A DNA stretch of 63,482 nt, filler included, from Phoronis australis (taxonomy: Eukaryota > Animalia > Phoronida), in the NCBI GenBank assembly GCA_002633005.1. It is 10 parts of 10 records of this genome, joined end to end, with 100 filler letters (N's around TTAATTAATTAA, not from the genome) between each part and the next. Parts side by side here need not be neighbours in the genome. Positions count along the whole stretch, not along the records: positions 24,356 to 32,838 come from NMRA01001892.1; 9 more parts are not named here. One strand, given 5' to 3'. Both the position numbers and the translations under genes were made by a program. This document shows, one piece after another, positions 12,001 to 43,700 of the stretch. The stretch's first letter is position 1. Each line of letters starts with the position of its first letter. The notes under the pieces are model-generated. The model saw only the letters and a list, made by a program, of their open reading frames with translations. It ran no database searches and was not told where the DNA came from.

Positions 12001-12513
12001 ATTGAGGTTTAAAATAAGTTCTTGATGTTCTTAAATAACAATTCTTTTGTATTTGCGGTGGGAAGTACAACTGTTGCTCTGCAACGTAGGGGAGAAAATT
12101 TGCTTGGAATTGATCAAGGGATGAAGAGTGGACTGTTTCTCTGTACATACCAAAGCGTAGGTAGCACGGGAATTCCACTACATGAGCTCGACTTTATGTA
12201 TAAAAGTGATTATGTCGTGCTCAAAGTAACGAATATAGTTTTGATTGAGCGTGATCCAAATCACTAGTTTATTATTGATGTACGCTTTACCGTCTGCTAG
12301 GCTTCTATTCAACAGATTGGACTACATTTAGAATATGGTACAATAGACAGTGAAAGCTTTTAACTTAATAGACCGATACCATTAAATATGAAACAAAATA
12401 GATATCGTTAAGTTTGTTTGTTTCTTCGATTGACTTTACAATTACATAGACCGGTAAACTGGCCATAGTAGATAGTCAGTCTTGCAGTGTTCCTGCTGAT
12501 AAGAACACGTAAC

Positions 12514-12882
12514 ATGTTTTTGTCCGTCTGGATAGCGGTCTTTTTAAACCTCGTTAAATTTTGTCAGCCTGACTCACTATTTGGTGAAAAAATACAAACA
12601 TGCTCGGCCATTTCGCTGGGATCTACTTGTTCTGTTACAACCATAACTAGGTCGTTTTCACAGTCATACTTTTCGAAACGATCTGGCTCAAGAAGTCGAA
12701 TGGAATGCGCGCTCTACTGCAGGAGAGAGGCAGCTTGCACCTCGGCTTACTACGAAGATGATACAGGAGTATGCTACTTCTCCCAGGAAAGCCATCACGC
12801 CATGAAGTCTCAGGGAAGATCGGAAAAAGACTTAGAAAAGCTTGGAAGCATGATCAGAATTTACAACTTCATATCAAATCAG
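12514..12882 (+). CDS. First coding exon of a secreted PAN/Apple-domain protein
   Basis: ATG plus hydrophobic signal-like peptide MFLSVWIAVFLNLVKFCQP, then RSRMECALYCRREAACTSAYYEDDTGVCYF (PAN CxxxC...C...C pattern). Phase-0 donor cag|gttaga at 12882. Confidence 0.65.
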
Positions 12883-26301: not shown

Positions 26302-26749
26302 CCCTATTGGAGTAATAAGTAATAAAGGAAAATTTACTACACTGCACACTGCAAAAAAACCTTTGTTGGCTCTTGCAAAAACAGTATGTCCACCTTGTGT
26401 GACCTGGCATTGACGAAGATACCATTACGATTAGCAGGGTCCTTACAACCATTTACATTGAGGTATGCAAATTTTAATTAAACTGTGCATTGTAAAAAGA
26501 AAGAAACTGGAATGAGGTACCGAGGATGAAAATGTGAAAAGATAAGCTCTGCAGAAATGGTCCATGCTAACGAGGTAGAGAGTCCCTGGCTTTCCGCTTC
26601 TGCCGACGACAGTCAACGGTGATTAAAGAAGCGCACAAGTCGTCAGAGTCATCATGGAAAGATGTGGAAATGTTTGCTGGTCGTTTAAGAGGCTGTGTCT
26701 CATGATGAAGTACCGTTTACCTAATAAGGAGTCTGGTACGTAGGCACTG

Positions 26750-27350
26750 GCGCCTTTTTATAGAAGCAGTGACTGCAGTAGCCAGCGGGGTCTCAGAGAT
26801 TACGTAGATGTTGTCCAGAGTGGGAAGGTCGTCCACCTCAAGCTTAGGGGGACTGAACTGTGACGCATGTGTACAGGGTTCCCATTTACCAGTCAAACGG
26901 CCGTATGCATGCCAGTCACAGCAATGGGGTGTCTTGCATCTGCTTGTCAGGTGCCCAAGCTACTTACACTTCAGACAAAGCGGGGCCTCCCTTTCATCGT
27001 CATCAGGACCGGCCAGCTACATTCTTTATTGTAAATCACAGAAAAAGTATGCAGTATCTCTCTCGCTTGTTTTATAATTACTCAACGAACCATTGTTCCA
27101 ACAAATAGCTTCCTGTAATGGAAGACTTCTCTTTACGGCGATGACTTGCCCAAATGGTGAGAGTGACTGAGAAAGGCATGCACCAATCTCACTTCTTTTC
27201 ATATGCCATATGCATGTTTCTAATTTTTCTTCATTCAAAGAACACATACGTTGATCTTAAAAAGTACATTCTTATCGACTTATCATCTCATGCACCCCTT
27301 ATTGAGGTTCTTTCATAATAAAATAATTTTGGAACCATGCTTGCTCCATT
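26750..27350 (-). pseudogene. Tx1-type ORF1 zinc-knuckle relic, unit 1
   Basis: Homologous to 24900-25520 (LSQSLSPFGQVIAV; knuckle region at 26880-26985), frameshifted. Confidence 0.7.
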
Positions 27351-27958
27351 CAGACAGTATAGAGTCGATCTATGGTTTTATTAAAGCAAAGAAAAAATAA
27401 GTACATCATATATGAATGTGGTAGAAATTCAGTTTCTACCATCTATAACATCCTTAATCTATGACTCTGATGTACTGTTTGGTCTTGGTGCTTCTCGTAT
27501 ATGACTCTGGTTTGTTCAGAGTCCTTCTTTTGCTCTTCTATGGTCTTCTAATTAAACATGTTTTGCCAAAGTTTTCATTTTAAAATGCACAAAGTCACAG
27601 CAGAAGCAGGTAATTGGCATTGAGAGTAAGCATTTCTTAACAACCCACAATTAACAGCTACAGCACTGCTTTATTTGATGAAGTCAGTGCTCTGTTTTCC
27701 CAACAGGTGTCACTGCATCGTTTCTTGACCTACAAGCCTTTTTTAATTTTTCGGAAATTAATTGATTGACTTGATGGCCCAGGATTTTTATAATGTTTTT
27801 AGTTTAGAGTTTCATCTGCTTGTATCCTGGTGATGGTGGTAAATAGTTCATTTGATATTTGTTGACTATGCATCTGAATTGTTGCATCAAACACTTACCT
27901 TCACCAGTGTAGTGTATGCAGTCTCTAAATATAATGAAGCTGTTAAACTGCACTAGAT

Positions 27959-28147
27959 ATCGCTTCTCGGCCTTTTGGCTAAGATCAAAGTGTAGTATCT
28001 GTTCTTATCAGCTTAATATCTGATACGTCCCCCATTGGGGGACTTCGATATTAAACTGATTTTTGGAACTGGGCGAAGTGTTAGGGGCTTGCTCCACCTT
28101 TGCCACGGGTTGACCTCGTATTGCAGTACCTCCAGGATTGGCCCACT
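27959..28147 (+). ncRNA. U2: U2 spliceosomal snRNA, copy 2
   Basis: Full-length U2 with the same hallmarks as copy 1. Confidence 0.95.
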
Positions 28148-28559
28148 CCCTATGGGAGTAATAAGTAATAAAAGAAATTTTACTACCCTGCTCTTGCAAA
28201 AACATCTTCGTGATTGGCAAAGATACCATTACGCTTAGCAGGGTCCATACAACCATTAACATTGAGGTATGCAAATTTTAATTAAACTATGCATTGTAAA
28301 AATAAAACTAGAATGAGTTGATAGGTACTGAGGATGAAAATGTGAAAAGATAAGCTCTGCAGAAATGATCCATGCTAACGAGGTAGAGAGTCCCTGGCTT
28401 TCCGCTTCTGCCGACAACTGTCAACGGTCATTAAAGAAGCGCACGAGTAGTTAGAGTCATCAGGGGACGATGTGGAAATGTTTGCTGGTGGTTTCAGAGG
28501 CTGTGTCCCATGATGAAATACCATTTACCAAATAAGGAGTCTGGTACGCAGGCACTAGC

Positions 28560-29180
28560 GTCTTTGTAGAAGCAGCGACTGCAATATCCAGCGGGGTCTC
28601 AGAGACTACGGAGGTGTTGTCCAGAGTGGGATTGTCGTCCACTTCCAGCTTAGGGGGCCTGAACTGTGACGCATGTGTACAGGGTTCCCATTTACCAGGC
28701 AAATGGCCGTATGCATGCCAGTCATAGCAATGGGGTGTCTTGCATTTGCTTGTCAGGTGCCCAACCTACTTACACTTCAGACAAAGCGGGGCCGCCCTTT
28801 CATCGTCATCAGGACCGGCCAGCCACGTTCTTTATAAATAATTGTAAATCACAGAAAAAGTATGCAGTACCTTTCTCGCTTGTTTTATAATTCCTTTATG
28901 AACCATTGTTCCAACAAATAGTTTCCTGTAACAGAAGACTTCGCTTAACAGCGATGACTTGGCCAAGTGGTGAGAGTGACTGAGAAAGACATGCACCAAT
29001 CTCACTGCTTTCCATATGCCATGTGCATGTTTCTAATTTTTCTTTATTCAAAGAACACATACTTTGATCTTAAAATGTACATTCTTATCAACTTATCATC
29101 TCATGCACCCCCTATTGAGGGTCTTTGATTATAAAATAATTTTGGAACCATGCAAAATGTCATGTGCTTGCTCCATTCAG
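28560..29180 (-). pseudogene. Tx1-type ORF1 zinc-knuckle relic, unit 2
   Basis: Homologous to the other spacer copies. Confidence 0.7.
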
Positions 29181-30419
29181 ACAGTATAGAGTTGATCTAT
29201 GGTTTTATTAAAGCAAAGAAAATATAGGTACATCATGTATGAATGTGATAGAAATTCATTTTCTACCATCTATAACAACCTTAATCTATGACTCTTATGT
29301 ACTGTTTGGTCTTGGTGCTTCTCGGATATGGCTCTGGTTTGTTCAGGGTCCTTCTTTTGCTCTTCTATGGTCTTCTAATTTAACACGTTTTGCCAAAGTT
29401 TTCATTTTAAAATGCACAAAGTCACAGCAGAAGCAGGTAATTGGCATTGAGAGTAAGCATTTCTTAACAACTCGCAATTAACAGCTACAACACTGCTTTA
29501 ATTGATGACGTCAGTGCTCTGTTTTCCCAACAGGTGTCAGTGCATCGTTTCTTGACCTACAATCCTTTTGCAATTTTTTTGAAATTAATTGATTGACTTG
29601 ATGGCCCGGGATTTTTATAATGTTTTTTGTTTAGAGTTTCATCTGCTTGTATCCTGNTATGCCATGTGCATGTTTCTAATTTTTCTTCATTCAAAGAACA
29701 CCTCCTTTGATCTTAAAAAGTACATTCTTATCATCTCATGCACCCCCTATTGAGGGTCTTTGATAATAAAATAATTTTGGAACCATGTGAAATGTCATGC
29801 GCTTGCTCCATTCAGACAGTATAGAGTCGATCTATGGTTTTATTAAAGCAAAGAAAATATAAGTACATCATGTATGCATGTGATAGAAATTCAGTTTCTA
29901 CCATCTATAACAACCTTAATCTATGACTCTTATGTACTGTTTGGTGTTGGTGCTTCTCGGATATGGCTCTGGTTTGTTCAGAGTCCTTCTTTTGCTCTTC
30001 TATGGTCTTCTAATTTACATGTTTTGCCAAAGTTTTCATTTTAAAATGCACAATGTCACAGCAGAAGCAGGTAATTGGCATTGAGAGTAAGCATTTCTTA
30101 ACAACCCACAATTAACAGCTGAAGCACTGCTTTAATGGATGAAGTCAGTGCTCTGTTTTCCCAACAGGTGTCAGTGCATCGTTTTTTGACCTACAATCCT
30201 TTTGCAATTTTTTGGAAATTAATTGATTGACTTGATGGCCCGGGATTTTTATAATGTTTTTTGTTTAGAGTTTCATCTGCTTGTATCCTGGTGATGGTGG
30301 TAAATAGTTCATTTGATATTTGTTGACTATGCATCTGAATTGTTGCATCAAACACTTACCTACACCAGTGTAGTGTATGCAGTCTCTTAATATAATGAAG
30401 CTGTTAAACTGCACTCGAT

Positions 30420-30608
30420 ATCGCTTCTCGGCCTTTTGGCTAAGATCAAAGTGTAGTATCTGTTCTTATCAGCTTAATATCTGATATGTCCCCCATTGGG
30501 GGACTTCGATATTAAACTGATTTTTGGAACTGGGCAAAGTGTTAGGGGCTTGCTCCGCCTTTGCCACCGGTTGACCTGGTATTGCAGTACCTCCAGGATT
30601 GGCCCACT
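30420..30608 (+). ncRNA. U2: U2 spliceosomal snRNA, copy 3
   Basis: Full-length U2 with a perfect SLIV stem CCTGG/CCAGG. Confidence 0.95.
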
Positions 30609-30954
30609 CCCTATGGGAGTAATAAGTAATAAAGGAAATTTTACTACACTGCACACTGCAAAAAAACTTTGTTAGGCTCTTGCAAAAAACTTAGGTCCAT
30701 CTTGGGTGATTGGCAAAGATACCATTACGCTTAGCAGGGTCCTTACAACCATTAACATTGAGGTATGCAAATTTTAATTAAACTGCGCATTCTAAAAATA
30801 ATGAAACTAGAATGAGGTGAAAGGTACCGATGATGAAAATGTGAAAAGATAAGCTCTGCAGAAATGGTCCATGCTAACGAGGTAGAGAGTCCCTGGCTTT
30901 CCGCTTCTGCCAACGACTGTCAACGGTGATTAAAGAAGCGCACGAGTAGTTAGN

Positions 30955-31495
30955 TAAGGTCGTCCACCTCAAGCTTAGGGGAACTGAACTGTGACGCATG
31001 TGTACAGGGTTCCCATTTACCAGTCAAACGGCCGTATGCATGCCAGTCACAGCAATGGGGTGTCTTGCATTTACTTCTCAGGTGCCCAACCTACTTACAC
31101 TTCAGACAAAGCTCGGCCTCCCTTTCATCGTGATCAGGACCGGCCAGCTACATTCTTTATTGTAAATCACAGAAAAAGTACGCAGTACCTCTCTCGCTTG
31201 TTTTATAATTACTCAACAAACCATTGTTCCAACTAATAGCTTCCTGTAACGGAAGACTTCTCTTTACAGCGATGACTTGCCCAAATGGTGAGAGTGACTG
31301 AAAAGGCATGCACCAATCTCACTGCTTTCCATATGCCATGTGCATGTTTCTAATTTTTCTTCATTCAAAGAACACCTCCTTTGATCTTAAAAAGTACATT
31401 CTTATCAACTTATCATCTCATGCACCCCCTATTGAGGGTCTTTGATTATAAAATAATTTTGGAACCATGCGAAGTGTCATGGGCTTGCTCCATTC
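30955..31495 (-). pseudogene. Tx1-type ORF1 zinc-knuckle relic, unit 3
   Basis: Homologous to the other spacer copies. Confidence 0.7.
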
Positions 31496-32058
31496 AGACA
31501 GTATAGAGTCGATCTATGGTTTTATTAAAGCAAAGGAAATATAAGTACATCATGTATGAATGTGATAGAAATTCAGTTTCTACCATCTATAACAACCTTA
31601 ATCTATGACTCTTATGTATTGTTGAGTCCTTCTTTTGCTCTTCTATGGTCTTCTAATTTAACATGTTTTGCCAAAGTTTTCATTTCAAAATGCACAAAGT
31701 CACAACAGAAGCAGGTAATTGGCATTGAGAGTAAGCATTTCTTAACAACCCACAATGAACAGCTGAAGCACTGCTTTAGTTGATGAAGTCAGTGCTCTGT
31801 TTTCCCAACAGGTGTCAGTGCATGGTTTCTTGACCTACAATCCTTTTTTAATTTTTTGGAAATTAATTGATTGACTTGATGGCCCGGGATTTTGATAGTG
31901 TTTTTTCTTTAGAGTTTCATCTGCTTGTATCCTGGTGATGGTGGTAAATAGTTCATTTGATATTTGTTGACTATGCATCTGAATTGTTGCATCAAACACT
32001 TACCTACACCAGTGTAGTGTATGCAGTCTCTAAATATAATGAAGCTGTTAAACTGCAC

Positions 32059-32838
32059 GCGTCGCGAGACTCTATACAACCGCCCAAAGAACGGTGGTTT
32101 TTCTCTCGTTGACGTGGCTACTAAATTGAAAGCTTATTGGCTCATGCATCTTCATCGCTACCTTTTTCATCCGACACATTTCCATTACACTACTTACTGG
32201 ATCGGGATGTACTTCCGCGAGGTGAAGCCCGAACTGGCGTCTAATCTCGTTCCTCACTCAGCCTTCATTCCGCCCTTTTACGTCAACCTGTTGGCGTTCT
32301 ATCGGGACTTTCGTCGCCGTTTTTCTAACGTTAATTTTGAGTCTGTCTCAAATAAGTTTATTTATTGGAAGCTTATGAGTTCTATTGTCAAGCCTTTTAA
32401 GATTTCGATTGATCCTAGCTTTCTTCCTCATATTTAGCAAATATGGAGGTATGTTTTTTCCCCCTGTCTAGAGGGACGTGCGACTGACCTGTGTTGGAAA
32501 GTCGTTAATAATTTCTTGCCATTACGTAGTAACTTGTTTGCTCGCACTATTAGCTCGACGGACACGTGCCCGTTCTGCGAACTGTCTCCTGAGACTTCGA
32601 TTCATCTTTTTTATGAGTGCGAGGTTGTTGCTCCCTGTGTGGAGGTCTTAGATGCTATGCTATTTTCTTTGTTGGTGACCATGTTAAGGTTTCCGCATTT
32701 AGTATGTTGTACCTAGTGTTTGCTGGTTTGGATGCCCACCAGCATACCCTATTTCTTATATTGTCAGCAGAGCTAAAGTCTGCCATCTGGTTCATGCGTA
32801 ACAGGTTGTTATTTGATCATGTGCCGTCCTCTACGGAT
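32059..32838 (+). mobile_element. 5'-truncated Tx1/L1-clade LINE ORF2 joined at position -5 of a U2 start
   Basis: RRETLYNRPKNGGFSLVDVATKLKAYWL...LCWKVVNNFLPLRSNLFAR...CPFCELSPETSIHLFYEC...IWFMRN (post-RT region and zf-RVT). In-frame stop at 32435 and frameshift near 32665. Junction aactgcac|gcgtcg versus aactgcac-tcgat-ATCGC in intact units. Confidence 0.88.
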
Positions 32839-33083
32839 NNNNNNNNNNNNNNNNNNNNNNNNNNNNNNNNNNNNNNNNNNNNTTAATTAATTAANNNNNN
32901 NNNNNNNNNNNNNNNNNNNNNNNNNNNNNNNNNNNNNNCCCACCCTCTGTCTCAGGGTTTCCCAATTTAAGCACCCAGGATTTTAACCCGAGAGTTTACG
33001 GTAAGCATAATGAAGCCAGCAGGCTGTTTGACTGGTTACTGCATATCCGAGAAATACCGTTTGGTTATCACTACGGGTAATAA

Positions 33084-33476
33084 CCCACTCTTATTACCCA
33101 ATCTGACAGCTCTATTAATGGTCTCTTCACCAGTGTTTATATACCAGGACACTGTGGCATCTCATTCAACGTCAAGGCAGATGAGCTTGCAGGCATCACA
33201 GAACCGATTGCTGATCTGCTCCTCACACCAGCAGATGTAATCTCCAGAGTGTGTGAATCGCTTACAGATGCCGAGATTGTACAACAGCAGGAGAGATGGG
33301 CAACAAAGCGCCTCATAGAGCGAGGATGGAAATACGGAGATGCAGCAAAAACTCGTATCAGGGGAAAAGATCGAAGAGTGTGTAACCAGCACGAACTTGG
33401 TTGCATCTCCAAATTTACATTGCGTGCGATACTGGAAGGAGGAGGGCCAGATACTATCCCGATGCCTACCCCCTGA
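33084..33476 (+). mobile_element. RNase H-containing retroelement fragment in a WASHC5 intron
   Basis: Open frame contains VYIPGHCGISFNVKADELAG, matching the RNase H C-terminal motif xPGHxGIxGNExADxLA. Confidence 0.6.
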
Positions 33477-33673
33477 CGTCACACCGTCACCACAGAAACA
33501 GAAACAGACATGTCATACAGGTTCATTCTTTGGTATGGCAGAGAGTTTTGCTTGCAATCAGCCTATACTGTATGCAAACAACAGTGAAAGCACTACAATG
33601 TGACTGTGAAATAGCGACAAGACCCCTTCCCCCAAGTTTGAACATGTTACAAGAACATCAGACGAACACTTGC

Positions 33674-36995
<3,322 letters not shown>

Positions 36996-37490
36996 CTGCA
37001 AAACAAGTAACAACAAAACCTGAAAATGTATTCAGTCTTAAGTGAAGTCAAAGATTAAACAAAACGCTCTTCTTCTCACCAAATTTGACAAAAGCAAAAC
37101 TTGAGGGTGGAACATTATTTAACTTGGTGTTACATCCGCTTCATCTGTTTCTGACACCCTTATAGTGTAACCACNNNNNNNNNNNNNNNNNNNNNNNNNN
37201 NNNNNNNNNNNNNNNNNNTTAATTAATTAANNNNNNNNNNNNNNNNNNNNNNNNNNNNNNNNNNNNNNNNNNNNTTTTACATTTTTAGCTGAACATCCAA
37301 AGACTGAAACCAATAGATTTTGAGAAACAGGCCCCATATCACTCACATGGAATTGCACGTGCTTGGGTGTAGGATTTGATGTCACTTCTGCCACCAGATG
37401 GTGCTGTGTTAGCGTGTGGAACTGTGTGTTCTTCAATTGTAGGTGTTTGTTTGTTATATACAGTGTTTGACTTTAGTTTATTGTTTACAG

Positions 37491-40400
37491 TGTTTGACTT
37501 TCACCAACAAGTGGACGGTCTGCAGGAGTCTGGCCGAGGGACAAAGCTGTAAGTACATTGCTAGACTGAAATAACCTGAAAGTTGTACTGTATTCGAGCA
37601 TATTTTAGTTCAAGTATCTGTATCTGAACTAATGTGTTTTCTTGAAGAAATTTTCACTCAGATATTTCACATATAGGCGCGTGCATTTTCACTTGTAGGT
37701 GCAGGCAGCTATGCCTTGCATATGTGCGTGTTTTCGTATCGGTGGTTTTTGTGTGTTTTTTGTCAGTTCTGTGTACTTTTCAATCATTAAATGGTGAACT
37801 GTTGGAAATTTAGACATTTAAGGTTAATAGGTAGGATGCTATAAAAATGGCCAAATTTAGATGACCTCGGAACTTTATATTTCAGAAACGGCTGATTGGA
37901 TTCGTATGAAACTTTCAGATATTATGCTTTATGAAATGTTCTCCAAGACGTTTTAGGAATTGTTTTCAAAGTGTTTCACTTTTGCAAGAGGGGCTATCAA
38001 AAAATAGCACTTTTATTATTTTCATGACAAATCTTTAAAGTTGCATAAAACAAAAATGAAATTGTATTTTAGAAAAGTGTATTGGCTTTTTTGATATCTC
38101 GCCTAGAACATTTATATCTAATAAATGTGATGGTGTTACTGACACCGTTGTTTTGCTGTCAATCAATGTCCCTTTCTTTTTGCTAAATTTTAATTAAAAG
38201 GACCTGGTCACATGAGCCAATTACTAACAGATTGCTAAAAAGTCAGTCAAATTCTACGAGTTTTCTATGTTCAGAAAATATATGCCTTTACTGACTTAGA
38301 ATCTATAGTTTTTAGATATTATGCTAAGTGCACCGACATGTCGATGAAGTCCCACATAACTTTAACGTCCGCCATTTTGTATCGGATAACTCAAGTTTCA
38401 GTCACAGCTTGTTTGTGTAACTGAAGTGTTTCGTGTACGTCCACTTGTGCTTACGGTATTTCTTCACTTATTTAGCACACAATATGGCCGACAAGTGAAA
38501 TACTATTTCGTCAAATTTGTCCTCAAAAAACTAAGATCATGGGAAAATTGGTCCATTATTGACATAGTTTTTACTATGTAGGTGTCATAAAACAACATTT
38601 ACTTAAAGTTTCAACTATTTTAAAAAAGTAATCAACCTTTGAAAAATTGGAAAAATGACACTTTTTGTGTGAAATAAGTGAAGAATTACAGTATTTCCGT
38701 ATGCAGGTGTAGCTTCACATTTGGGTGCATGACAACCATTTACATTTATAAAAGTAGATGCCTGAAAGCCACATGCATTGTCAAAATCAGTGTAATGGAT
38801 ATTGACAATCTCATACTAGAAGTTTGCAGCAGGGAAACTAGTCGTAAAGGCAATCTGTGTAAATCAGTGTCTGTCATTCAGTAGAAATTTGTATTTTGTT
38901 TTTCATTTCAGAATTGGCACCACAAAGAAAGGCATCGGACCGACATACTCCGCCAAAATGCACAGGCATGGCTTACGGGTGTCTGATCTGCTGGGAGACT
39001 GGAACTTGTTTAAAGAAAGGTAGGTTAAAGTCTTCGATCAAACACTGATGTATAAAATAGCTGTACTTGTCAATAAGGACTAGAAGTGTCACATTCTCAC
39101 GTCATGTGAATCACATAGCCGCCCTTGTTTTAGATATTATCTACATGTGCACCGATTATTAAGTGATTTGGTCAGCAAAATTATGTCTTTTCCTGCATTG
39201 TGTTTCTACAATCACTTTCATTGAGCAAACGCAATGACAAAAATTGTGATTGCACTGTGTTACGTGTCAAGTCGAGGTGTCGCCCCCATGAAGAGTTTCT
39301 TGTTTGTGCTTGGTGGTCGCATTGGACAGTTGCCTGGTGACATGAAAATTTTAGTGTCTGACATCAAAGTTAGAATACTGATAACCAGAGGTGAGCTGAA
39401 CCATGCAGGTGTGTGTCGTTATAAATTTCATTGACAACTCATGTTCTGTGTGTGAAAATGGTAGTGTATTTTCCTGACTTCTCGATCTGATTTGCTTGAT
39501 TATAGTTTGTCCGTGACCTTGTCTTGTAGGTTTCGTAATCTGGCCAAATATTACTTGCGTTGCTATGACGATCTGTCAATTGACATCGAAGCCGAAATTG
39601 TGAAGTACGAGGTACGTTTGTGTGACACACCCTTTTGTTGGTGTTATTGTTTAACAATGTCTCAGACCTTGTAGGTTTTAATGCTGAACTATGTTGTCTT
39701 ATACGATTTCCTCTTACGATGCCTGGGGTGTTTGAGATTGTGGCAGTTTCTGGTTTCCCGGAAGAGGTGCTTTTTATGCGCCCACATATTTGTGGGCACA
39801 TGACGTGTGTTCGTGAAAATTTTCAGTTATGTTCCTTTCATGGATGGAACGCCTTGAACAACTGTTACATATTGAAATAGAAAGTTTTAGGCAATTAAGC
39901 TTTACCTTTCTTGTTGTTTGGTGAGGTGAAATTTCTCCAAGTCTTTTGCTTTGTCTTTTGCTTTCTTTTTTCGCGTGCTACAGGTGGCATTTACGCATAG
40001 CATATGTATCATGAATAGCTCGAAGCCTATTGTTTTTAGTTGAAAGTGGACACAAAATGACGCTGTGGTGGCCATTTTTCACTTTTTTGATTTTCGCAGC
40101 TTTCATTTGTACATGCCACTGTGTCACAGCTTATTTCAGTTGGTTGTTTTGACGAAATGACATGGGTTTGTCCCTTGACTCATTCTTCTCAATTGCAGCA
40201 GTCTTTTTTTCTCTCAAATATATGGTGGGGAGTCTGTAGTCCATGCGTTGTCCTCTTGTAGGAGTGGCGCGAGAAGATTCGGCCACTGGTCAGTGACACC
40301 ATCTCTTACCTGCATAAAGCCTTGAAGGAGGACAAGAACATCTTGGTAGAGGGCGCCAATGCTACAATGCTGGACATTGATTTTGGTATGTAAAATCTCT

Positions 40401-40664
40401 TATGAGGTTGTACATTTTTACCAACATTTTCAAAGGCTAAAAATTTGATAGCTGTGGAGCCTTAATTGAATTTGTCACGAGCTACTTATCAATCATGTCA
40501 TTGTTACAGGCACCTACCCTTTCGTCACATCTAGTAATTGTAGTGTGGGAGCAGTGTGCACTGGATTAGGCATCCCGCCTAAGTATGTGGGTGACACCTG
40601 GGGAGTGGTTAAAGCTTTCACCACCAGAGTCGGGCCAGGCGCTCTGCCCACAGAACAAAACAAC
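37491..40664 (+). CDS. ADSS: Adenylosuccinate synthetase, internal exons
   Basis: Exons 37491-37548, 38912-39019, 39530-39611, 40262-40385 and 40510-40664 with GT-AG ends give [10 protein letters not shown]...[15 protein letters not shown]...[26 protein letters not shown]...[12 protein letters not shown]. Confidence 0.96.
37850..38290 (+). repeat. Dispersed intronic repeat (probable non-autonomous DNA element)
   Basis: Aligns with 47850-48265 in the WSB1 contig (cggaac.ttatat.tcagaaa...gaaactttcagata...gaggggctatcaaaa). Confidence 0.7.
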
Positions 40665-40795
40665 GTACGGGTTTGCAGACTTGTGTTGAATTTGANNNNN
40701 NNNNNNNNNNNNNNNNNNNNNNNNNNNNNNNNNNNNNNNTTAATTAATTAANNNNNNNNNNNNNNNNNNNNNNNNNNNNNNNNNNNNNNNNNNNN

Positions 40796-43700
40796 GTCTC
40801 TTTTCACCAGAACTGCCGAGCGTTAGCGAATTTGTGAGTTCTTTCAGCGAACGCTGCAACTCTTGAAAGTCGATTGCAGTAACAGCGTTTGAGGTGTCCG
40901 TGATTATAATGACATCAATAGCGGACGTCGTTTTGTTATACGAAGAAGGTGACGTAGTTGTAACTGTTAAATAAAAACATAATACTTGGTGATTAACACA
41001 GGTTGGATTGGTGAGGACACCAGCTTTCTTATCGCTTACCAGTTAACACATATGAAAGGTTTTGTTAATGCACCGAGATACACTGAACAAATTCCATGTT
41101 TTGAGACCAAGTGTTAATTAAAACATAAATTCCACATATGTTACTGTGCTCAACCATTATACCTTCCGAAACGCCATCTTTGAAGACACGTCTAAGAATC
41201 TCATTTTTGACGGCATCGTTCAACTGGGCATAAGCTGTCGTCTGAAAGATGTTTTCAACGTCTGGGTCCGTCGTAATTGCTGCAACATCCGATGCAATTG
41301 ACGTCGGTACGACCGCATATGTTGTCACCCCATCCGCTTCAAGGCTACTGGCTTTGGAAATTGCGTTTTGACTGTCTTGTCCTAAGTCTGCGAAAAGATA
41401 TCTATGTAAGACATGTCTATAGCAACTCTTTCAAGTTAATCAAACAAGTAAATACTATGTACCAGTGTCGACTCATACATGCCGATGACGGTTGCAAGAT
41501 TTTAAAAGAGGTAACGAAACAGTAAAAGTCATCTTTTGCTTGAATGAATCTCTCGCTTTCATGAATAAGGGCTTATGAATATTTCATCACCGCAGTGTTT
41601 GGCTCGAAAACAAAATTCATTTAGTCTGCGTTCGTCTCTACCTTGGATTTCTTTTCTGCATATTCATCCATTACATGTTTAAGTGTCATTATTGTGTTCG
41701 TATGCAATTCCTTGGAACAATGATAAAAGGTCTTACCTGCTGCGAATATAATGATCGACTTGTTCGAGTTACTTCTTCCGTTTTGTTTGAACTGGTCTTC
41801 TGCTGTAGTCAAGGCTTTGTGAAGAAGTGCGTTTCCGCCCATCTGTCTCATGTCGTCGATGGCTGAGAGAACACTGCTTTTGTCCGATGTAAATGTTGAT
41901 GAAACATTGCTATTTGTACCGTAATTTACAATAGCCACTCTCTTTTCACCGGAACTGCCGAGCGTTAGCGAATTTGTGAGTTCTTTTAGCGAACGCTGCA
42001 ATTCTTGAAAGACACTTGCAGTGACAGCGTTTGAGGTGTCCGTGATTATAATGACATCAATAGCCGACGTCGTTTTGTTATTTGAAGGAGGTAACGCAGT
42101 TGTAACTGTTAAATAAAAGCATATTACTCAGTGATTAACACAGGTTGAATTGGATGAACACCAGCTTTCTTATCGCTTACCAGTTAACGCATGTGAAATA
42201 TTATGGTGCACTGAGATACAATGAACGAAATAGATGTTTTGAGACCTAGTGTTTAGTAAAAAATAAATTCCACGTATGTTACTGTGCTAGACTATTATAC
42301 CTTCCGACACGCCATCTTTAAAGACACGGCTAAGAATCTCATTCTTGACGGCATCGTTCAACTGGGCATAAGCTGTCGTCTGAAAAATGTTTTCAGTGTC
42401 TGGGTCAGTTGTAATTGCTGCAACATCTGAAGCAACTGACGTCGGTACTACCGCATATATTGTCACCCCATCCGCTTCAAGACTACTGGCTTTGGAAATT
42501 GCGTTTTGACTGGCTTGTCCTAAAACTGTAAATAGATATCTATGTAGATGTATCTATTACAACTCTTTCAGGGTAGTCAAGCACCTTCATACTATGTACC
42601 AGTGCCGATCGACGAATACATGGTAATGACGGTTGCAAGCTTATTCAATGAGGTGAAAAAGCAGTAAAGGTTAACTTTTGCTTGATTGAATCGCTCGTGT
42701 ACATAAATAGGGGCTGAAAGAAATTTTCACCAACGCAGTGTTTGGCACGAAACCAATATTCACTAAGTCTGTCAACTTCTCTACCCTGGATTCCTTTTCT
42801 GCATATCCATCCTTCCATCTTTAAGTTTCAATATTTTTCCATATTCTTCCTTGGAACATGAGCAAATTAAATGTCTTACCGGCTGCGAATATAATGATCG
42901 ACTTGTTAGCATTACTTCTTCCGTTTTGTTTGAACTGGTTGTCTGCTGTATTCAAGGCTTTGTGAAGAAGTGCGTTTCCTCCCATTTGTCTCATGTCGTC
43001 GATGGCTGAGAGAACACTGCTTTTGTCCGATGTAAATGTTGATGAGATATTGCTATTTGTACCGTAGTTGACAATGGCCAGTCTCTTTTCACCAGAACTG
43101 CCGAGCGTTAGCGAATTTGTGAGTTCTTTCAGCGAACGCTGCAACTCTTGAAAGTCACTTGCAGTAACAGCGTTTGAGGTGTCCGTGATTATAATGACAT
43201 CGATAGCGGACGTCGTTTTGATATACGAAGACGGTGACGTAGTTGTAGCTGTTAAATAAAAGCATATTACTCAGTGATTAACACAGGTTGAATTGGATGA
43301 ACACCAGCTTTCTTATCGCTTACCAGTTAACGCATATGAAAGATTTTGTTAATGCAGCGAGATACACTGAACAAATTCGATATTTTGAGACCAAGTGTTA
43401 ATTAAAACATAAATTGCACGTATGTTACTGTAATCAACCATTATACCTTCCAACACGCCATCTTTGAAGACACGACTAAGAATCTCATTTTTGACGGCAT
43501 CGTTCAACAGGGCATAAGGTGTCGTCTGAAAGATGTTTTCAACGTCTGGGTCCGTTGTAATTGCTGCAACATCCGATGCAATTGACGTCGGTACGACCGC
43601 ATATATTGTCACCCCATCCGCTTCAAGGCTACTGGCTTTGGAAATTGCGTTTTGACTGTCTTGTCCTAAATCTGCGAAAAGATATCTATGTAAGACCTGT

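What the first reader, a model, noticed from the sequence alone, without database searches (positions are those of the whole stretch)
31985..32838. Tx1 LINE replaces U2 directly behind an intact snRNA promoter
Seen: the last unit matches the others through the PSE up to -6, then switches to a same-strand, 5'-truncated Tx1/L1 ORF2 instead of U2. Established: Keno (Tx1 clade) inserts inside U2 genes. This junction is upstream of +1. Inference: either a Keno-like insertion that deleted the first ~40 nt of target, or a new specificity for the snRNA start site. In either case a promoterless LINE fragment now sits under a U2 promoter. With the ORF1 relic and the inverted U2, this suggests repeated retroelement attack on one array.
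Basis: partly seen in the sequence, partly recalled or inferred. Interest (0 to 1): 0.8.

Follow-up and report, generated by a model that had tools for sequence, protein, structure and literature searches.

The report
Truncated Keno-like LINE in U2 array
A broken tail piece of a jumping gene sits directly behind the promoter of the last unit in a row of U2 splicing-RNA genes; it is likely an ordinary shortened copy of a known U2-targeting kind (Keno-like) that likely erased the first 40 or so bases of its target, not a new landing site.

Summary
The fourth U2 unit matches the others up to -6 (32058), keeps the promoter core motif, then switches to the C-terminal quarter of a LINE ORF2 (zf-RVT), with one stop and one frameshift, ending at a gap. 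A public DNA run carries the same junction, so misassembly is unlikely. Two other runs point to a 3-base microhomology with a second copy. The deciding 3' junction lies in the gap and was not recovered. Relatives (25-33% identical) are snRNA-gene-targeted APE LINEs. Of 108 loci inspected, 14 end in poly(A) plus U2 from nt 35-38 (Keno site), 3 in U1 from nt 32-40, and 10 in U1 from nt 3. The fragment groups away from that last, start-site lineage (AU p=0.012). In 21 loci the LINE sits behind a U2 promoter plus U2 head, so promoter capture is normal for this clade. Most likely this is a 5'-truncated Keno-like copy with a deletion of about 41-44 bp of target, as described for R2. The array spacers hold an older inverted element of the same clade. 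The scan noted similar snRNA-targeting LINEs in other genomes. Verdict: new member of a known kind.

The parts
31759..32058 (+). U2 upstream region of the fourth array unit (-305..-6), with the YACC promoter-core motif at 32001 and 32007
32056..32058 (+). Junction; likely 3-base microhomology shared by the promoter and another LINE copy
   Evidence: the X1 contig begins at 32056; the X4 contig fits from 32056 and runs on 105 other letters to the left; the X2 contig covers 32029-32331
32059..32838 (+). 5'-truncated APE-type LINE ORF2 C-terminal region (about aa 840-1100 of about 1155); zf-RVT at about 32444-32629; stop at 32435-32437; frameshift near 32671; no EN, RT or ORF1
32839..32938 (.). 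Assembly gap hiding the ORF2 end (about 160 nt more expected), the 3' UTR and the 3' junction
   Evidence: no U2 remnant beyond the gap
26113..26305 (+). Intact U2 snRNA gene
   Evidence: Rfam RF00004, 180 bits
27959..28151 (+). Intact U2 snRNA gene
   Evidence: Rfam RF00004, 185.6 bits
30420..30612 (+). Intact U2 snRNA gene
   Evidence: Rfam RF00004, 189.7 bits
26370..27264 (-). Old inverted element of the same clade filling most of the spacer: degenerate U2 head (nt ~14-48), part of ORF1 with CCHC knuckle, first ~43 aa of ORF2; copies also at about 24532-25420, 28619-29072 and 31007-31394
31399..31491 (+). Degenerate forward U2 piece (nt 44-137, about 75% identity) next to the inverted relic; copies at 25425, 27269 and 29082
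24356..24466 (.). Rearranged U2 at the left end of the array: inverted nt 3-38 fused to forward nt 121-193, beside a gap

Best explanation
This is the broken 3' part of a LINE ORF2 joined at -6 to a U2 promoter, and it is likely a 5'-truncated copy of a Keno-like, U2-targeting Tx1 element that likely nicked inside the U2 gene near nt 36-40 and lost about 41-44 bp of target while its 5' end was joined. Inferred steps: an intact copy elsewhere supplied RNA and protein; its AP-type endonuclease nicked U2 at the clade's usual site; reverse transcription stopped about 1 kb plus UTR from the tail, before reaching the U2 head that full-length relatives carry; the cDNA end paired with three bases at -8..-6 and the DNA in between was lost. 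The result is one dead U2 gene and a non-coding LINE remnant. The promoter may still fire (C/G at the -1/+1 position), but the RNA could encode no endonuclease, RT or ORF1.
For: Shown: the junction in the window and in run X2; contig boundaries at 32056 in X1 and X4. Of the ten loci scoring best against the fragment, 6 end in poly(A) plus an snRNA gene entered at nt 32-40 (U2: L083, L084, L013; U1: L086, L081, L085), none at nt 1-5, and 4 show no snRNA 3' flank. In a 58-row tree the fragment lies in a starred 26-row set (SH-aLRT 99) with 9 U2-associated, 3 mid-U1 and 13 unlabelled rows and no U1-start rows. In one long-read array (G001), 7 of 7 interrupted U2 promoters keep U2 nt 1 to 27-41, so head-bearing copies do not join upstream of +1. 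Known: 5'-truncated R2 copies mostly show 1-5 nt microhomology and more often delete upstream target (PMC2718515, passages); oomycete Utopia lacks U2 nt 1-38 upstream of its insertions (PMC4640811, part 2); Keno inserts 37 nt into U2 (PMC6136364, passages). The old relic in this same array carries a U2 head ending near nt 48, like L005, L006, L009 and L056.
Against: The 3' junction was not seen. Relatives are only 25-33% identical, the fragment has a long branch (1.23) and fills 22% of columns, and the clade switches between U1 and U2, so the target is inferred from kin. The loci were gathered with an alignment of the fragment's own best hits. No other junction upstream of U2 +1 was seen in any relative, and could not have detected one. 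Target deletions over 20 bp were absent from 25 wild-type insertions of an unrelated LINE (PMC2666801, passages). The 105 letters left of 32056 in X4 were not shown, so the microhomology is inferred. Where relatives have V, L or I before the motif, the window has T. Diverged short pieces of the family lie in 1.4-4.2 kb contigs whose 5' loose ends look unlike the U2 promoter by eye, so targeting may be loose.
Confidence: 0.62

Rival explanations
1. A full-length Keno-like element inserted normally in U2, with a U2 head. A later deletion of about 4 kb, likely microhomology-mediated, removed -5 through the head, ORF1, EN and RT. The target is the same as in the best explanation; only the timing differs.
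For: The array is rearrangement-prone (relic inversion, rearranged U2 at 24356). Arrays of relatives show deletions, such as U2 starting at nt 67 without a promoter, and 1.1-1.9 kb shortened inserts that keep the U1 head. Microhomology fits either route.
Against: It needs two events. No full-length allele at this locus was seen, though this was not testable. 5' truncation is the commonest fate of LINE copies (PMC2718515).
Confidence: 0.18
2. The family nicks at or near the snRNA start site, as the U1 nt-3 lineage does, so an almost whole U2 gene follows the LINE tail inside the gap.
For: The junction is at -6. Ten of 108 loci show a related lineage entering U1 at nt 3, and its 5' junctions keep U1 nt 1 to 12-19, so start-proximal targeting exists in this wider group.
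Against: An AU test rejects placing the fragment with the 17-row lineage that holds the U1-start elements (p=0.0115; the group was named after seeing the tree, and the fragment is a long branch). Even that lineage keeps 12-19 nt of the gene on its 5' side. No relative enters U2 before nt 35 at its 3' end (0 of 14).
Confidence: 0.08
3. An off-target insertion, or an ectopic recombination or repair event, joined the array end to a LINE copy that lies outside any snRNA gene; the position behind the promoter is chance.
For: The array does not resume after the gap. Diverged family pieces lie in long contigs with flanks unlike the promoter. Some relatives have non-snRNA 3' flanks (L009, L019).
Against: A same-strand junction within 6 bp of a U2 start, by a clade whose kin target U1 and U2 genes, is unlikely by chance.
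Confidence: 0.09
4. The junction is a misassembly near a contig end.
For: It lies 780 bp from a gap, and the array has single-N seams at 29657 and 30954. X2 may be the source sample and bridges with 30, not 31, letters.
Against: An independently assembled public contig (X2) spans the junction. X2 differs from the window at several LINE sites yet shows no change at the stop codon.
Confidence: 0.03

Closest known systems
Keno (Tx1 clade, APE-type non-LTR retrotransposon specific for U2 genes; Kojima and Fujiwara 2004, seen only as cited in PMC4494074, PMC4640811 and PMC6136364)
   Same: APE-type ORF2 clade, same strand as U2, sits in a U2 gene unit; close relatives end in poly(A) plus U2 from nt 35-38.
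   Different: The 5' junction is at -6 with no U2 head; the 3' junction is unseen; no Keno reference sequence came from any tool, so clustering with Keno itself was not tested.
Utopia (RLE-type, same U2 site; PMC4640811, parts 1-2 of 5 read)
   Same: U2 target; loss of U2 nt 1-38 upstream of the insertion is described for oomycete copies.
   Different: Utopia has a C-terminal restriction-like endonuclease; this C-terminus is the zf-RVT end of APE-type ORF2 proteins.
5'-truncated R2 copies in Drosophila 28S genes (PMC2718515, passages)
   Same: Truncated copies with 1-5 nt microhomology and deletion of upstream target; dependence on the host gene's promoter (stated for R2 in PMC4494074, passage).
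   Different: Different clade (RLE), different target gene.
SINEU (PMC4494074, passages)
   Same: Tx1-linked elements associated with U1/U2 and thought to depend on upstream promoters.
   Different: SINEU carries a U1/U2 head and is highly repeated; this copy has no head and no sign of spread.

Membership tests
Tx1 clade / APE-type LINE | ORF2 with AP endonuclease, RT and C-terminal CCHC zinc knuckle | tested here: inconclusive
   The fragment holds only zf-RVT. Of 11 relatives scanned, 11 have RT, 8 have the Exo_endo_phos domain and 10 have zf-RVT.
Tx1 clade / APE-type LINE | RT-domain tree places it with named Tx1 families | not testable with these tools
   The fragment lacks RT; no hit was named Tx1 or Keno among 120 listed relatives of L083 or 10 looked-up clusters. 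The label Tx1 rests on recalled motif likeness and on the shared U2 site.
Keno | 3' junction: tail followed by U2 from nt 38/39 | not testable with these tools
   Hidden in the gap at 32839-32938; the read-based test was not obtained. Met in relatives L083, L051, L096, L099 and others; a sub-site at nt 35/36 in L084, L003, L010, L013, L087.
Keno | Same orientation as the U2 gene, inside a U2 transcription unit | tested here: met
Keno | Copies confined to U2 genes | tested here: inconclusive
   No genome is held. At least two near-identical sequence types occur in each of 4 runs, with flanks mostly unseen; diverged pieces have 5' flanks unlike the promoter.
Keno | Clusters with Keno reference sequences | not tested
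   No reference was available from any tool; the tree used unnamed relatives labelled by their own junctions.
Utopia | C-terminal restriction-like endonuclease | tested here: not met
   The C-terminus aligns to APE-type ORF2 ends.
U1 nt-3 (start-proximal) lineage seen here | Groups with that lineage in the ORF2 tree | tested here: not met
   AU p=0.0115, with the caveats given.
SINEU | U1/U2-derived 5' head | tested here: not met
   No U2 letters at the junction.

The most novel reading that the evidence does not exclude
This family aims by distance from the snRNA promoter rather than by sequence, this copy records a nick at the U2 start site itself, and the intact promoter now drives a headless LINE-tail RNA that an active copy can mobilise, i.e. 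the birth of a non-autonomous element caught at one locus.
Probability: 0.08. Interest if true: 0.6.

Novelty: new member of a known kind. Interest (0 to 1): 0.2.

Why it matters
As read here it matters little: one more decayed copy of a U2-targeting LINE, with a junction type already described for other target-specific LINEs. It shows that this array has been hit at least twice by the same clade, and that an old inverted insertion became a fixed part of the repeat unit. If the 3' junction resumed at -5 to +5, it would show start-site targeting of U2, which I did not find in five full-text searches. The wider lead lies in the relatives: U1-targeted members at nt 3 and at nt 32-40, nested among U2-targeted ones, would allow a test of how an AP endonuclease switches between snRNA genes.

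Tried and rejected
No whole genome is held, so copies and flanks could not be tabulated. Word-based protein searches with the fragment found nothing; the HMMER search did. Viral contigs held no relative. PDB sequences gave only weak unrelated hits, E>=0.17. No DNA-level match between the fragment and 157 loci. The contigs before and after the array match neither the array nor the loci, and no snRNA lies in 32700-41000. Twelve unlabelled close relatives gave no snRNA hit in Rfam; most end before their junctions. Whole-promoter alignment with 17 other promoters gave p<0.05 in 2 (L010 0.005; L022 0.037, only 46 nt) and is not relied on; L022 was left out of the 16 as too short. Tree rows dropped: loci without a frame of 640 aa or more, most of the L097-L157 array family, L094/L098/L103/L104, 19 rows covering under 60% of the fragment, and 10 near-duplicates. 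Contig depth was not used as copy number. Supplements: none readable for PMC4494074; those of PMC4640811 were listed but not read. Both may hold junction data bearing on 5' deletions and on U1-targeted Tx1 families, and Repbase was not searchable.

Full report
Observation. The window holds a tandem U2 array from about 24356 to 32058, with intact genes at 26113, 27959 and 30420. The fourth unit's upstream DNA matches the others to 32058, which is -6 relative to the equivalent start at 32064: 0-1 mismatches over -60..-6 and 274/307 to 290/300 identities over -305..-6. A YACC motif at -63 and -57 is kept; the same motif lies at -63..-52 in 13 of 16 U1/U2 promoters from other animals, against 1-3 of 16 in control windows, so it is likely the PSE core. 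From 32059 the same strand encodes the C-terminal quarter of a LINE ORF2 (zf-RVT E=1.5e-9; about aa 840-1050 of about 1150-aa APE-RT-zfRVT relatives, best 35% identity), with a stop at 32435 and a frameshift near 32671. The contig ends at 32838, about 160 nt before the expected ORF2 stop. Relatives have 3' UTRs of roughly 220-1700 nt.

Is the junction real? Four DNA runs from one study hold the stretch. In X2 one contig covers 32029-32331 with one other letter and no gap. It has 30 promoter letters, one short of the tool's bridging rule, but that is the position at which a 31-mer graph forks between U2 and LINE. X2 may be the source sample, though it differs from the window at several LINE sites. 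In X1 the LINE contig begins at 32056, and in X4 it fits from 32056 and runs on with 105 other letters that were not shown. Both suggest that another copy shares 32056-32058 and differs to the left, i.e. a 3-base microhomology (inferred). All four runs show a second sequence type at 32332-32372. Three runs read another letter at the stop codon and two carry an extra base at the frameshift, so less damaged versions exist. Diverged pieces (14 differences and 4 gap letters over about 125 nt) lie in contigs of 1.4-4.2 kb with 5' loose ends that look unlike the promoter. The 3' junction could not be read.

Relatives. An alignment of 16 of the 150 listed hits fetched 80 metagenome loci and 77 loci of apparent animal DNA inside prokaryotic genome bins. 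I inspected 108 of these 157; the other 49 belong to one tandem family. Of the 108, 14 end in poly(A) plus U2 from nt 35-38, 3 in U1 from nt 32-40, and 10 in U1 from nt 3; the other 81 show no snRNA 3' junction, often because the contig ends first. In 21 loci the element carries a U2 head ending at nt 22-54; in the loci printed the head follows upstream DNA and ORF1 starts shortly after. So sitting behind a U2 promoter is the rule for this clade. Of the ten best-scoring loci, three end in U2, three in mid-U1 and four show no snRNA flank. In long-read arrays of G001, 7 of 7 interrupted U2 promoters keep nt 1 to 27-41, and none joins upstream of +1.

Tree. In a 58-row LG+G4 tree the fragment (long branch, 22% of columns) lies in a starred 26-row set with 9 U2-associated, 3 mid-U1 and 13 unlabelled rows; the 6 U1-start rows lie on the other side. 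Forcing the fragment into the 17-row lineage holding them is rejected (AU p=0.0115; group named after seeing the tree). No tool gave a named Keno or Tx1 sequence, so membership of Keno is untested; the label rests on architecture and on the shared U2 site.

Mechanism. Shown: the junction, the orientation, the broken frame and the targets of relatives. Inferred: a nick in U2 near nt 36-40, early stop of reverse transcription, 5' joining through three shared bases at -8..-6, and loss of about 41-44 bp. Precedent: 5'-truncated R2 copies mostly show 1-5 nt microhomology and more often delete upstream target (PMC2718515, passages); oomycete Utopia lacks U2 nt 1-38 upstream (PMC4640811, parts 1-2 of 5); Keno inserts 37 nt into U2 and occurs in vertebrates, lancelet and cnidarians (PMC6136364 and PMC4494074, passages). 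Against: none of 25 wild-type insertions of an unrelated LINE had a target truncation over 20 bp (PMC2666801, passages), and I found no second junction upstream of +1. A full-length insertion followed by a deletion gives the same DNA and cannot be told apart here. Together the two Keno-site routes have about 0.8. Any transcript from 32064 could not encode EN, RT or ORF1; the first in-frame ATG gives 97 aa. Expression was not tested.

The array. Each spacer is largely an older inverted element of the same clade: a degenerate U2 head (nt ~14-48; above all of 300 shuffles in 4 of 5 copies, and all but one in the fifth), part of ORF1 with a CCHC knuckle (E down to 6e-25) and the first ~43 aa of ORF2, next to a degenerate forward U2 piece. 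It predates amplification of the unit. At 24356 an inverted U2 piece ends at nt 38 beside a gap. This supports repeated attack. Single-N seams at 29657 and 30954 make the unit count uncertain.

Novelty. Five full-text searches found Keno only in three papers and no description of U1-targeted or start-site-targeted Tx1 elements; PMC8869645 (passages) covers U1 targeting by Dada DNA transposons only. The library lacks Kojima and Fujiwara 2004 and Repbase Reports, so this is weak. Earlier scan notes report LINEs 32-48 nt inside several snRNA genes in other genomes; none covers this genome's array or this sequence. Verdict: a real junction, a new member of a known kind, interest 0.2.

Noticed in passing
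L026, L033, L035, L042, L060, L062, L089, L090, L094, L095; L158-L165 (G001): A lineage of related LINEs enters U1 at nt 3, with 5' junctions keeping U1 nt 1 to 12-19, in long U2-U1-5S arrays that also hold several U2-targeted families. Not found in my literature searches.
   Followed up: partly
L081:8076, L085:6013, L086:7282: Relatives that enter U1 at nt 32-40, nested twice among U2-targeted rows in the tree, at about the same distance from +1 as the U2 site. L081 has a whole U1 gene plus flank at its 5' side.
   Followed up: partly
L003, L010, L013, L084, L087 versus L051, L068, L071, L075, L076, L077, L083, L096, L099: Two U2 entry points about 3 nt apart (nt 35/36 and nt 38/39) among U2-targeted relatives; 5' heads range from 22 to 54 nt.
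   Followed up: partly
L097-L157 (G005): Long head-to-tail arrays of one LINE family with a period of about 6.5 kb; no U2 match in that genome bin, target unknown.
   Followed up: no
window 24532-31491: An inverted LINE 5' part plus U2 fragments forms most of each spacer and begins just after the U2 3' end; whether it arose by twin priming or later inversion is unresolved.
   Followed up: partly
window 19172-20046 (+): Separate decayed RT fragment of a non-LTR element (E=6e-9 to the ORF2 profile).
   Followed up: no
window 41624-43270 (-) and 12472-12924 (+): Repeated von Willebrand A domain frames and a PAN domain frame.
   Followed up: no
L081-L157: Several prokaryotic genome bins contain long stretches of eukaryotic snRNA arrays and LINEs, likely host contamination.
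   Followed up: no
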